Below, piece after piece: positions 28,502-29,836 of a DNA stretch of 64,000 nucleotides. The notes under the pieces are model-generated. The model was not told the origin of the DNA. It saw only the letters and a list, made by a program, of their open reading frames with translations, and ran no database searches. The DNA lies in assembly GCA_963765765.1 (NCBI GenBank), contig CAVXYC010000030.1, positions 254,916 to 318,915 of the forward strand, read 5' to 3'. Position numbers and translations under genes: made by a program. Every line of letters begins with the position of its first letter. The stretch's first letter is position 1. The DNA comes from an uncultured Chloroflexia bacterium. GTDB lineage: Bacteria; Chloroflexota; UBA6077; JACCZL01.

Positions 28502-28528
28502 CTCGTTTGTAGCAACGGTCTTGGAATG

Positions 28529-29491
28529 TCAAGCTGGGGATAACTTGGCAGCATTCCAATCCTGATTGGTGGCAATGAGGTGATTGAGGATGCGCAGCAG
28601 CTTGCCCATGCAGGCGGTGAGCGCCACCTTCGTCGGTTTCCCGGCAGTGCGCAGCCGCTGATAGAACGCGCGCAGCGCGGGGTTGTGCCGCACGCCGACC
28701 AGGGCGCCCATATACAGCGCGGCCCGGACATCGGCCCGCCCGCCCCAGATGCGGCGCCGGCCACGCATGGTCCCACTGTCGCGGCTATGCGGCGCCAGGC
28801 CCACCAGCGCGGTGATCTCTTTGCGGCCCAGTCGGCCCAGCTCCGGCAGGCGTGCCAGGAGGGTGGCCGCGATGGTGGGGCCGATGGCCGGCACCGTCCG
28901 GAGCCGCTGGGCCTTCCCGTGCCAGACCGGATCCTTGGCCACGCGCTCGGCCAGCTCTTTCTCGATCGCGGCCAGCTCCGCTTCGAGCCATTCCACGTGA
29001 CGGGTGATGCCGGGGCGGACCACCGGATCCGCCTGCCGCAGGCGCTGCCGTTCGGCGACCAGCACGTCCCGCAATTGCCGACGTCGATCCACCAGCGCCT
29101 GCAGCGCCTGCGTGGCGGCGTCGAGCGGCGGACGCACCGCGGGCGCGACCGCCTCGGCAAAGTGCGCCAGCACGTGCGCATCGAGGGCGTCGGTCTTCGC
29201 CAGGCGACCGGTCGCGCGCGCGAAATCGCGCACCTGGCGCGGATTCACCACCGCGACGGGCAGTCCGGCCGCGGTGAGTGCCGTGGCCAGCGGCCGCTCG
29301 AGCCCACCGGTAGCTTCGAGCACGATGCGCTCGGGCACCAGCGGTCCCAGGGTGTCCACCAGGGCGGCGCACCCGTCGTCCGTATTGGGTACCGACCACC
29401 ACTGGCCCGACGGACGGAGCGCGACGACCAGCTCCGCTTGGGCGACATCAATCCCCACGACGACTGGGGGTGCGGCGGACTCCGAGCTCAT
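28529..29491 (-). CDS. IS110 recombinase (RuvC-like DEDD plus Tnp20 serine domain), 320 aa
   Basis: GIDVA, LEATG, KTDALDA, RDSG, ACMGKLL; RBS GAGGAGG before ATG 29491. Confidence 0.96.
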
Positions 29492-29519
29492 ACCACGCCT
29501 CCTCATGGCGACACTGGCA

Positions 29520-29755
29520 GTCGGCGCGGCGTCCCCAGGCCGGAACTTGCAGATACGGGCTGAGCGCCCCGGCAACAGTACAGGCTCACGGGACGACGGG
29601 CAGAGGTGAGGCCCAGGCTACAAAACGGTCTCACCGGACCGAGTGCGGATCGGACTCTCACCTCCGGCCGACCGCGTTCCAGATGGGCTCGCTGGCCCCG
29701 CGGAGTTATCCCCACCCCGCGACGACGGCGACTTATCCCCATCTTTCACGCTTCG
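29520..29755 (-). ncRNA. IS110 bridge RNA (target- and donor-binding loops); ends approximate
   Basis: Target loop closed by GAGGTGAG/CTCACCTC with inner CGGTC/GACCG stem, guides ATCCGCACT (29650-29642) and TTTGTAG (29624-29618). Donor loop closed by CGTCCC/GGGACG, guides ACTGTTGC (29579-29572) and TGCAAG (29551-29546). Confidence 0.85.
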
Positions 29756-29770
29756 CGTTCAAGATACAAG

Positions 29771-29836
29771 TGCGGAATTCATTCCGCCGTCTTTTGACAT
29801 TGCACGGGACCGCGGAATGAATTCCGCACTACAAAC
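29771..29836. repeat. GTAG-type REP inverted doublet (family C), left copy split by the IS110
   Basis: gtttgtag (28505-28512) plus tgcggaattcattccgc (29771-29787) is the exact reverse complement of gcggaatgaattccgcactacaaac (29812-29836). Confidence 0.9.

What the first reader, a model, noticed from the sequence alone, without database searches (positions are those of the whole stretch)
28505..29836. IS110 bridge recombinase caught in its target: RNA guides match the interrupted REP and the donor junction
Seen: removing 28513-29770 restores the minus-strand target TTCCGCA-CT-ACAAA. The upstream non-coding RNA carries ATCCGCACT (8/9 match to left target plus core) and TTTGTAG (exact reverse complement of CTACAAA) in one internal loop. 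A second loop carries ACTGTTGC and TGCAAG, matching the donor junction ACCGTTG-CT-TGTAT with one wobble each. The recombinase has DEDD and the catalytic Ser. Known: this is the IS621 bridge-RNA architecture, and IS621 also targets REPs through a CT core. Inference: a complete, probably active ortholog naturally programmed to a different REP family in a distant lineage, and a candidate programmable recombinase. The system class is known; novelty would be in this ortholog and its target.
Basis: partly seen in the sequence, partly recalled or inferred. Interest (0 to 1): 0.88.

Follow-up and report, generated by a model that had tools for sequence, protein, structure and literature searches.

The report
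Bridge-RNA insertion sequence in a REP
This is a complete IS110-type mobile element whose own small RNA spells out both the short genomic repeat it jumped into and its own joined ends; it is a well-supported new example of the RNA-guided "bridge recombinase" systems described in 2024, not a new kind of system.

Summary
Window 28513-29770 (minus strand) is a 1258-bp IS110-group element. It has a 320-aa DEDD/Ser recombinase, a 279-nt left end, a 16-nt right end and a CT core at both junctions. Removing it restores a 24-nt site identical to the inverted partner REP at 29812-29835.

- **Copies:** the genome holds four. Three sit in the same REP-like family. The fourth, decayed copy sits in a partly matching non-REP site.
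- **RNA structure:** a covariance model built from 28 relatives hits the window once (29534-29665). Its stems covary: 93.7% of cells pair, against 72.2% in shuffles.
- **Guides:** guide loops track cognate flanks across 39 and 29 distinct guides (0/2000 shuffles each). The handshake nucleotide pairs with target position 7 in 35 of 39 elements. Ours is U:A.
- **Protein:** catalytic D15, E59, D101, D104 and S239 align with those of IS621.
- **Mobility hint:** one soil-metagenome contig joins the element's right end to the partner REP at the predicted core.

The class, REP targeting and the split junction promoter are all published, so this is a new member of a known kind. Activity is inferred, not shown. 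Other first-stage notes of this scan describe what appear to be other copies in this genome.

The parts
28513..29770 (-). Whole IS110-group element, 1258 bp, counted with one copy of the CT core (left-end CT = 29770->29769; the second CT at 28512->28511 is counted with the target)
   Evidence: Four copies in the genome share exactly these ends.
28529..29491 (-). Recombinase gene, 320 aa plus stop. Catalytic D15, E59, D101, D104, S239-G240. A GAGGAGG ribosome-binding site lies just upstream.
   Evidence: Pfam PF01548 9.4e-22 and PF02371 4.9e-18. PDB IS621 8wt6 7.5e-41 and ISCro4 9t56 2.6e-41 over residues 12-319. Motif positions.
29492..29770 (-). Left end (279 nt), non-coding; it encodes the bridge RNA
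29534..29665 (-). Bridge-RNA core (target-binding loop plus donor-binding loop); the only hit of model R1 in the 64-kb window, 88.4 bits, E 5.9e-18
29652..29665 (-). 5' side of the closing stem of the target-binding loop; it pairs with 29603-29614
   Evidence: All 12 pairs of this helix show double compensatory changes; 94.4% of cells pair. RNAalifold predicted the stem independently.
29642..29650 (-). Left target guide AUCCGCACU (8/9 to TTCCGCA+CT)
29626..29641 (-). Stem-loop inside the target-binding loop (CGGUC/GACCG)
   Evidence: The model carried only 3 pairs here: 86.1% of cells pair, and 1 of 3 pairs has a change on both sides. By eye the arms change together in the rows (GGTC/GACC, GGG/CCC, GAGC/GCTC, GGTG/CACC, GGCC/GGCC).
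29618..29625 (-). Right target guide UUUUGUAG (7/7 to CT+ACAAA at this copy)
29616..29617 (-). Handshake dinucleotide of the target loop (CC). The first C can pair with donor position 7 (G).
   Evidence: A47 and G48 are invariant and C49 nearly invariant. Role taken from PMC11208158 (passages).
29572..29579 (-). Left donor guide ACUGUUGC (ACCGTTG+C with one G.U). Metagenome variants carry C at 29577, which makes it fully Watson-Crick.
29545..29555 (-). Right donor guide region GUAUCUGCAAG. GCAAG pairs with CTTGT (one G.T). AU can pair with the next AT after a 2-nt bulge.
   Evidence: CAAG is invariant in 28 relatives. The same layout, with a G161.dT12 pair, is reported for IS621 (PMC11208158, passages).
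29543..29544 (-). Handshake dinucleotide of the donor loop (UU). The first U is complementary to target position 7 (A).
   Evidence: 35 of 39 distinct elements are Watson-Crick at this position; 0/5000 shuffles reach that.
28527..28532 (-). -35 box TTGACA in the right end, overlapping the recombinase stop codon
29761..29766 (-). -10 box TATCTT in the left end; it lies 18 nt from the -35 only when the ends are joined
   Evidence: 44 distinct junctions in relatives, spacer 17 in 39 and 18 in 3
28519..28523 (-). Short sub-terminal inverted repeat CAAGA, partner TCTTG at 29760-29764, flanking the donor sequence
   Evidence: Read directly. Short STIRs of IS110-group elements are described in PMC11208160 (passages).
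29771..29789 (-). Left part of the interrupted REP-like repeat (hairpin GCGGAAT/ATTCCGC plus left target)
28506..28512 (-). Right part of the interrupted target (second CT core plus ACAAA), 4 nt upstream of the ATG of the HAD-hydrolase gene (28501)
29812..29836 (+). Intact partner REP in inverted orientation (GCGGAATGAATTCCGCA-CT-ACAAAC)
   Evidence: In metagenome run X1 a contig joins the element's right end to this site.
29666..29755 (-). Extra 5' leader with a long stem-loop, absent from the nearest relatives. It carries two direct copies of TGGGGATAA(G/C)T, which recur inverted at 28535-28545.

Best explanation
The region is an IS110-group insertion sequence (a 'bridge recombinase' element) sitting in its natural target.

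Parts: it encodes a DEDD/Ser recombinase. In its 279-nt left end it encodes a bridge RNA with two internal loops.
- Loop 1 (LTG AUCCGCACU, stem-loop, RTG UUUUGUAG) reads the REP-like site TTCCGCA-CT-ACAAA.
- Loop 2 (LDG ACUGUUGC, stem-loop, RDG ...GCAAG) reads the element's own joined ends, ACCGTTG-CT-TGTAT.

Inferred cycle, taken from work on IS621:
1. Excision at the two CT cores gives a circle.
2. The circle junction brings a -35 box (in the right end, over the stop codon) to 18 nt from a -10 box (in the left end), which drives the bridge RNA and the recombinase.
3. Recombinase dimers on the two loops bring the circle junction and a REP together.
4. S239 cuts after CT, strands are exchanged with help from the handshake nucleotides, and the element is inserted without a duplication beyond the shared CT.

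Shown here: anatomy, family membership, structural covariation, guide-target and handshake covariation, and the same target for 3 of 4 copies.

Inferred only: transcription, circle formation and present-day activity.
For: - **Protein:** both Pfam domains. IS621 and ISCro4 structures match at about 1e-41 over residues 12-319, with all five catalytic residues aligned.
- **Ends:** CT at both junctions; the restored site equals the partner REP 24/24.
- **Copies:** 4 full copies in the genome. 3 of 4 lie in GACGGCGGAAT[G/A]AATTCCGCA|CT|AC. The fourth lies in CTCCCCA|CT|ACAGC, which keeps 7/9 and 5/7 guide matches, the core and A at position 7.
- **RNA:** 80 hits of model R1 in 86 sources, one in the window. 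On 60 distinct rows, 93.7% of cells pair against 72.2% shuffled. 18 of 22 pairs have double changes, 0/500 shuffles reach the observed values, and slid controls give 35-53%.
- **Guides:** LTG against the left flank averages 6.51/9, shuffled 4.69 (39 guides). RTG against the right flank averages 6.31/7, shuffled 4.20 (29 guides). Both 0/2000.
- **Handshake:** 35 of 39 elements are Watson-Crick, shuffled mean 24.4, 0/5000. The only two T:A rows are this element's intact form and its decayed C28 copy.
- **Promoter:** the split -35/-10 is conserved in 44 distinct junctions.
- **Metagenomes:** a variant at 29577 turns the LDG wobble into a Watson-Crick pair. One contig in X1 joins the right end to the partner REP through the shared CTACAAAC.
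Against: - There is no direct evidence of transcription, circles or excision. The only RNA-library contigs (run X15) are 95-98% variants, and DNA carry-over cannot be excluded.
- The single-sequence fold is not more stable than shuffles and partly pairs the guides (z -0.01).
- The LTG has a mismatch at position 1. The second handshake nucleotide of each loop does not pair. The promoter spacer is 18 rather than the family's usual 17. Any of these could lower activity.
- Two of the four copies are broken: C16 by a frameshift, C28 by many indels.
- Alignment A3 was fitted to the model, so its pair counts lean towards the structure.
- The X1 junction rests on one 145-nt contig with 34 nt on the element side.
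- Rfam holds no family that recognises this RNA in the sense orientation.
Confidence: 0.9

Rival explanations
1. The element is a genuine bridge-RNA IS110 but is now a fossil. Its copies date from past activity, and the sub-optimal features (position-1 LTG mismatch, unpaired second handshake bases, 18-nt promoter spacer) mean it no longer moves.
For: 2 of 4 copies are pseudogenes. Copies of 95% identity or more were found only in this genome among the 41 searched. There is no direct sign of circles. IS621 prefers perfect guide matches (PMC11208160, passages).
Against: Two copies on different contigs encode identical intact 320-aa proteins and are essentially identical in DNA, as expected after recent transposition. 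A different junction, right end to partner REP, exists in a soil metagenome. Natural relatives average only 6.5/9 LTG matches, so one mismatch is normal.
Confidence: 0.3
2. Target choice is made mainly by protein or DNA-structure recognition of the REP hairpin, and the RNA matches are secondary or coincidental.
For: 3 of 4 copies lie next to the same hairpin. A preprint on ISPpu10 reports, in its title and abstract, a sequence-structure dual-match logic for target recognition (10.64898/2026.03.19.712850, search listing and abstract only).
Against: The fourth copy sits in a site with no evident palindrome that still matches the guides at 7/9 and 5/7. Across relatives with unrelated targets, the guides change with the flanks (0/2000 shuffles), as does the handshake base. 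A contribution from the hairpin is not excluded.
Confidence: 0.1
3. The REP-like halves are the element's own terminal repeats rather than a pre-existing host repeat, so nothing was 'caught in its target'.
For: The same flank sequences accompany three copies.
Against: 13 unoccupied copies of the hairpin-plus-CTAC repeat exist without any element, among the 36 pattern hits. The decayed copy has other flanks. Relatives' contigs in runs X2 and X3 lack both the REPs and the element at this locus. The copies' shared sequence stops exactly at the CT cores.
Confidence: 0.02

Closest known systems
IS621 of Escherichia coli (IS110 group; bridge RNA; PDB 8wt6)
   Same: - Domain pair, with DEDD plus Ser-Gly catalytic residues aligned.
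- Long left end encoding a two-loop RNA: 9-nt LTG, stem-loop and RTG ending in AG; 8-nt LDG; RDG ending in CAAG with a G.T pair at the fifth position.
- CT core, and the same right-donor bases CT-TGTAT.
- Split sigma-70 promoter across the circle junction.
- The target is a REP, and the crossover falls in ...CT|AC at the edge of the hairpin (IS621 WT target ATCAGGCCTAC; PMC11208160 and PMC11208158, passages).
   Different: - The recombinase is a distant relative (144 bits; no closer than the ISCro4 structure).
- Different left donor (ACCGTTG) and a different REP family (TTCCGCA-CT-ACAAA).
- RTG complementarity is naturally 7 nt at this copy.
- Handshake bases are CC and UU rather than AU and GU.
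- The 5' leader is about 90 nt and carries repeats also found inverted in the right end.
- The host is a 61% GC soil bacterium, not an enterobacterium.
The unnamed clade of elements found here in Chloroflexota, Burkholderiales and other MAGs (loci L007-L086)
   Same: - Recombinases 44-58% identical to this one.
- The same termini, CT-TGTAT(C/G)TT ... TTGAC-N-AC(A/G)GTTG-CT.
- The same RNA model and the same split promoter.
   Different: - Each has its own target and matching guides.
- Most have only 16-29 nt between the left terminus and the first stem, against 105 nt here.
- None in the sample has A at target position 7 with a U handshake base.
ISPpu9 and ISPpu10 of Pseudomonas putida
   Same: IS110-family elements inserted in REPs or in a conserved intergenic repeat (PMC12288879 and 10.64898/2026.03.19.712850, abstracts only).
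   Different: I made no sequence comparison. ISPpu9 carries an sRNA gene downstream of the transposase in five of its seven copies, whereas here the RNA is upstream and the right end is only 16 nt.
IS1111-group elements
   Same: DEDD/Ser recombinase and RNA-guided targeting.
   Different: IS1111 elements have short left ends, long right ends and 7-17 bp sub-terminal repeats (PMC11208160, passages). Here the left end is 279 nt, the right end 16 nt, and the flanking inverted repeat 5 bp.

Membership tests
IS110 family, IS110 group (bridge recombinase element) | [quoted passage not shown] | tested here: met
   9.4e-22 (residues 12-153) and 4.9e-18 (194-278), both above the curated cut-offs
IS110 family, IS110 group (bridge recombinase element) | Catalytic D, E, D, D and Ser (followed by Gly) at the positions of IS621 D11, E60, D102, D105, S241, G242 | tested here: met
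   D15, E59, D101, D104, S239, G240, read from the phmmer alignment to 8wt6 and motif positions. IS621 residue list from PMC11208158 (passages).
IS110 family, IS110 group (bridge recombinase element) | Long left end and short right end, no long terminal inverted repeats, short sub-terminal repeat only | tested here: met
   Left end 279 nt, right end 16 nt. CAAGA/TCTTG flank the donor.
IS110 family, IS110 group (bridge recombinase element) | Same dinucleotide core at both junctions, and scarless restoration of the target on removal | tested here: met
   CT at both junctions in 4 of 4 copies. The restored site equals the partner REP 24/24.
IS110 family, IS110 group (bridge recombinase element) | Left-end RNA with two internal loops, each built as stem, guide, stem-loop, guide, supported by covariation | tested here: met
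   RNAalifold: 16 of 20 pairs compensatory. Named structure on 60 distinct rows: 93.7% paired, 18/22 pairs with double changes, 0/500 shuffles. Caveat: that alignment was fitted to the model.
IS110 family, IS110 group (bridge recombinase element) | Loop 1 guides complementary to target; loop 2 guides complementary to the joined ends | tested here: met
   This copy: 8/9, 7/7, 8-nt LDG with one G.U, GCAAG with one G.T. Family-wide covariation: 0/2000 shuffles for LTG and for RTG.
IS110 family, IS110 group (bridge recombinase element) | Handshake guides pair with the non-cognate DNA at position 7 | tested here: met
   Donor-loop base U against target A7; 35 of 39 elements Watson-Crick, 0/5000 shuffles. 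Target-loop base C against donor G7, nearly invariant. The second base of each pair does not match here.
IS110 family, IS110 group (bridge recombinase element) | Sigma-70-type promoter reconstituted at the circle junction | tested here: met
   TTGACA-18-TATCTT when the ends are joined; conserved in 44 distinct junctions. This is sequence only; transcription was not tested.
IS110 family, IS110 group (bridge recombinase element) | RNA-dependent recombination, circular intermediate | not testable with these tools
   Only indirect signs: identical intact copies and one metagenome contig with a new junction at the partner REP.
IS110 family, IS110 group (bridge recombinase element) | Match to a curated bridge-RNA covariance model | tested here: inconclusive
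   Neither Rfam 15 search returned a family on the sense strand: the window stretch at E up to 10, 15 related loci at E up to 0.001. The only related hit is RF02234 sX15 on the opposite strand: 28.3 bits here and 46.4 bits in L007, both below the gathering score of 55.
REP (repetitive extragenic palindromic) sequences | Short imperfect palindrome, many dispersed copies, often in inverted pairs | tested here: met
   13 unoccupied and 3 occupied copies of CGGAAT-N-ATTCCGCACT(AC), plus 2 variants, among the 36 pattern hits. Inverted pairs at C10, C7, C30 and in the window. The family is small, and I did not check all copies for extragenic location.
REP (repetitive extragenic palindromic) sequences | GTAG-type tetranucleotide next to the hairpin (recalled as typical of REPs mobilised by RAYT transposases) | tested here: met
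   CTAC follows the hairpin (GTAG on the other strand) in the copies listed. That this motif is a defining REP feature is recalled, not checked in a paper.
REP (repetitive extragenic palindromic) sequences | Cognate RAYT (Y1 transposase) gene flanked by the repeat | tested here: not met
   3 PF01797 matches in the genome. None has this repeat within 1.5 kb. For this reason I write 'REP-like'.

The most novel reading that the evidence does not exclude
The roughly 90-nt 5' leader, which the nearest relatives lack, carries two copies of TGGGGATAA(G/C)T that recur inverted inside the last codons of the recombinase gene. It could be an extra control layer peculiar to this element. Examples would be 5'-3' RNA pairing or a protein-binding site that couples bridge-RNA production, recombinase translation and end synapsis. 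Together with the X1 junction, the element may also flip or hop between the two REPs of a pair, acting as a natural RNA-guided switch next to the HAD-hydrolase gene.
Probability: 0.12. Interest if true: 0.5.

Novelty: new member of a known kind. Interest (0 to 1): 0.28.

Why it matters
This natural element shows each published feature of bridge recombination that sequence alone can show: both guide pairs, handshake base, split promoter, catalytic residues and repeated use of one target. It does so in a high-GC soil bacterium far from E. coli in sequence. It adds one more ready-to-test ortholog with a different left donor and target. The set of relatives gathered here gives an independent small-scale replication of guide-target and handshake covariation. 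It does not change what is known about how these systems work.

Tried and rejected
- **Single-sequence folding.** The fold of the left end gave no signal (z -0.01), so I did not use it for the loop claim.
- **Rfam.** No sense-strand family. The antisense sX15 hits are below threshold and are only reported in passing.
- **RAYT link.** Three Y1 transposase matches, none flanked by this repeat, so the link is not supported.
- **Sub-terminal GGGGATAA repeats as a family feature.** Among the 20 distinct elements other than this one's copies whose leader was long enough to score (40 nt or more), only L036 shows even a 9-mer (8/200 shuffles). The repeat is therefore particular to this element and stays unexplained.
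- **Host taxon.** Not determined.
- **pXCV183.** I asked for it by an accession recalled from memory. The collection holds no such record, and I dropped the step.
- **Metagenome runs.** All runs are Logan contigs. Parts of the element without cover in X1 and X3 say nothing. RNA-library run X15 holds 95-98% variants of the element, which does not show transcription.
- **TBL handshake count.** My regular expression for this count was unreliable (12 'A' calls come from an earlier AG). I use the invariance of A47, G48 and C49 instead.
- **REP filter.** My filter had a bug and returned 0. It was replaced.
- **Supplements.** The supplementary tables of PMC11208160 were closed, so I cannot say whether this ortholog is already listed there. 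ISfinder was not available.
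Full report
**What is in the sequence.**
Read on the minus strand, the region is TTCCGCA-CT-[TGTATCTTGAAC ... CCAAGACCGTTG]-CT-ACAAA.

The bracketed element plus one CT is window 28513-29770, 1258 bp. Taking it out gives TTTGTAGTGCGGAATTCATTCCGC on the + strand. 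That is the exact reverse complement (24 of 24) of an intact repeat 41 nt away at 29812-29835. The neighbour therefore confirms the junction independently.

The element lies between the stop of a DinB/MDMPI-like gene (29857-30645) and the start of a HAD-hydrolase gene (27788-28501). All three read on the minus strand.

**The protein.**
The ORF 28529-29491 (my first coordinates were off by a codon) gives 320 aa. It matches Pfam DEDD_Tnp_IS110 (9.4e-22) and Transposase_20 (4.9e-18).

Against solved structures it matches ISCro4 transposase (9t56, 2.6e-41) and IS621 transposase (8wt6, 7.5e-41) over residues 12-319.

In that alignment [19 protein letters not shown] and RDSGT sit under the IS621 motifs. 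This gives D15, E59, D101, D104 and S239-G240. They correspond to the published D11, E60, D102, D105, S241 and G242 (PMC11208158, passages seen).

**Copies and targets.**
The window's genome (6.49 Mb, 33 contigs, 61% GC) holds four full copies.

| Copy | DNA identity | Coding state | Left flank / right flank |
|---|---|---|---|
| C30 (this one) | 100% | intact, 320 aa | ...GGCGGAATGAATTCCGCA / CT-ACAAAC |
| C32 | 100% | intact, identical protein | same REP family / CT-ACCAGC |
| C16 | 99% | frameshift after about residue 214 | ...GGCGGAATAAATTCCGCA / CT-ACGAAC |
| C28 | 95% | many indels | CACTCCCCA / CT-ACAGCAC |

Coding states are and flanks.

The C28 site has no evident palindrome. It still matches the guides at 7/9 and 5/7 and keeps the CT core and A at position 7.

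The repeat family is small. Among 36 pattern hits I count 13 unoccupied hairpin-plus-CTAC copies, 2 with another right flank and 3 occupied. The exact 11-mer TTCCGCACTAC occurs 15 times, and by my reading of that list 10 of the 15 lie next to a hairpin.

Three Y1-transposase matches exist in the genome, but none is flanked by this repeat. I therefore call the repeat REP-like.

**Relatives.**
A scan of one genome per species returned 80 loci with recombinases 44-58% identical. The closest are in Dehalococcoidia, Thermomicrobiales and other Chloroflexota MAGs. Many others are in Burkholderiales and other phyla.

Copies within one genome define their ends. Nearly all relatives share the termini CT-TGTAT(C/G)TT and TTGAC-N-AC(A/G)GTTG-CT. 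The flanks differ from lineage to lineage.

Among 41 genomes of the window's own order and class, copies of 95% identity or more were found only in the window's genome. Eighteen others hold only weaker matches, the longest 65-74% identical in DNA.

**The RNA.**
- **Alignment.** Aligning left ends puts ours in register with the relatives.
- **First stem.** RNAalifold predicts a 12-bp closing stem for the first loop, and 16 of the 20 predicted pairs have compensatory changes.
- **Model.** I wrote a 22-pair structure: closing stem and inner hairpin for each loop. From it I built model R1 and searched 86 sources. There were 80 hits and exactly one in the 64-kb window, at 29534-29665 minus, 88.4 bits.
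- **Genome-wide.** The whole genome has five hits: the four copies and a second, different IS110-type element on C33.
- **Pair counts.** On the resulting alignment (60 distinct rows), 93.7% of cells form pairs against 72.2% in shuffles. 18 of 22 pairs show changes on both sides. No shuffle of 500 reaches any of the five measures. Sliding the partners by 1-3 columns drops pairing to 35-53%.
- **Caveat.** That alignment was fitted to the model. The RNAalifold result on the MAFFT alignment is the independent check.
- **Single-sequence fold.** This is uninformative (z -0.01).

**Guides.**
In ours the first loop reads G-AUCCGCACU-[CGGUC CGGUGA GACCG]-UUUUGUAG-CC. The second reads ACUGUUGC-C-[GGGC GCUCA GCCC]-GUAUCUGCAAG-UU.

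For every hit I took the loop strings and, where both termini could be found by motif, the flanks.
- **Left target guide:** 39 distinct loops average 6.51 of 9 identities with their own left flank plus core. After shuffling flanks among elements the mean is 4.69 (sd 0.15).
- **Right target guide:** 29 distinct loops average 6.31 of 7 against a shuffled 4.20 (sd 0.19).
- **Significance:** no shuffle of 2000 reaches either value.

Examples: L061 matches 9/9, L083 and L082 have RTG 8/8, and the L079/L081 pair differs by the same C-to-T change in guide and target.

The donor guides and donor ends are nearly constant, as reported for IS621 relatives (PMC11208160, passages).

The layout of our RDG is AU, a two-base bulge, then GCAAG with a G opposite T. 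This mirrors the published description of IS621: A157-U158, flipped U159-U160, G161.dT12, C162-G165 (PMC11208158, passage).

**Handshake.**
The same paper defines handshake guides as the two bases 3' of RTG and of RDG. After strand exchange these pair with positions 6-7 of the other DNA.
- **Donor loop.** The first base after CAAG is complementary to target position 7 in 35 of 39 distinct elements (shuffled mean 24.4, sd 2.0, 0/5000). The only two U:A rows are this element's intact form and its decayed C28 copy.
- **Target loop.** The base after the RTG's AG is a nearly invariant C, opposite the invariant donor G7.
- **Second bases.** The second base of each pair does not match in ours.

**Promoter.**
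Joining right and left ends through one CT puts TTGACA 18 nt from TATCTT. The TGA inside TTGACA is the recombinase stop codon.

In 44 distinct junctions of relatives the -35 is TTGAC[N]. The spacer is 17 in 39 and 18 in 3, and the -10 is TATCTT in 31.

In the integrated copy, by eye, the flank offers no -35. This fits the published weak expression from integrated IS621 (PMC13626964, abstract).

**Public runs.**
Twenty of the 22 listed runs hold part of the stretch. Fourteen are DNA runs and six are filed as RNA. Nearly all are labelled soil, and three DNA runs hold half or more of the sampled words. I laid four of them.
- **X2.** It has near-identical contigs over almost the whole element. One of them crosses the left junction into the REP.
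- **LDG variant.** X2 and the RNA-library run X15 carry G at 29577. This turns the LDG's U into C and makes it fully complementary to ACCGTTG, as expected if that position pairs.
- **Locus without the element.** In X2 and X3 a contig joins 28488 to 29844 with 22 other letters between. A relative therefore lacks both REPs and the element at this locus.
- **New junction.** In X1 one 145-nt contig (depth 9.5) reads 34 nt of the element's right end, then CTACAAAC, which is shared by both sides, then 29837 onward. That is the junction expected if the element sat in the partner REP in the other orientation, or if the segment had been inverted between the two sites. It is a single contig. X1 is also the best holder and may be the source sample.

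**Comparison and verdict.**
Every defining feature of an IS110-group bridge-recombinase element that sequence can show is met. Activity itself could not be tested.

REP targeting by IS621, the CT core, the loops, the handshake and the junction promoter are all in print (PMC11208160, PMC11208158, PMC13626964). Other IS110 elements in REPs are also described (PMC12288879, abstract).

The finding is therefore real and well read by the first stage, but it is a new member of a known kind.

What is particular to it:
- the REP-like family it uses;
- the left donor ACCGTTG;
- the A7/U handshake pair;
- a roughly 90-nt 5' leader with repeats that recur inverted in the right end, which I cannot explain.

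Other first-stage notes of this scan describe what appear to be other copies of this element, and its split promoter, elsewhere in this genome. They repeat the same reading and are not independent evidence.

Noticed in passing
window 29517-29680 (+) and L007:1310-1473 (-): Rfam RF02234 (Xanthomonadaceae sRNA sX15) matches full length on the strand opposite to the bridge RNA: 28.3 and 46.4 bits, both below the gathering score of 55. The reverse complement of the model consensus contains the conserved donor-loop string. The original paper reports sX15 and asX7 as a complementary pair on a plasmid, with 10 homologues in Stenotrophomonas (PMC3300014, passages). The Rfam family may therefore be the antisense of an IS110 bridge RNA.
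   Followed up: partly
L016:111-2453 (also L019, L020, L021; a Dehalococcoidia MAG): An IS110 element whose bridge RNA is cut inside the left donor guide by a second, oppositely oriented IS110-family element (310-aa ORF at 262-1194). The second element sits at a CT core in the antisense of that guide. The 2.4-kb composite occurs four times at 99% identity.
   Followed up: partly
window 28535-28545, 29704-29714, 29730-29745: TGGGGATAA(G/C)T occurs twice as a direct repeat in the extra 5' leader and once inverted in the last codons of the recombinase gene (11 nt perfect; 1 of 200 shuffles reaches it). It is not seen in relatives apart from a 9-mer in L036.
   Followed up: partly
G000:C33:18953-19995 (locus L005): A second, different IS110-type element in the same genome (67% DNA identity). 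It has its own bridge-RNA hit (62.3 bits) and guides that fit its own flanks (GAAGGAT-CT-TCCCC: 7/9 and 6/7).
   Followed up: partly
window 28488-29844: Contigs in two soil metagenomes (X2, X3) join the HAD and DinB genes with a 22-nt spacer in place of both REPs and the element. The REP pair is therefore itself variable between relatives.
   Followed up: no
window 28501-28513: The element's right end lies 11 nt upstream of the ATG of the HAD-hydrolase gene and reads in the same direction. Read-through from the recombinase gene could therefore drive or disturb that gene.
   Followed up: no
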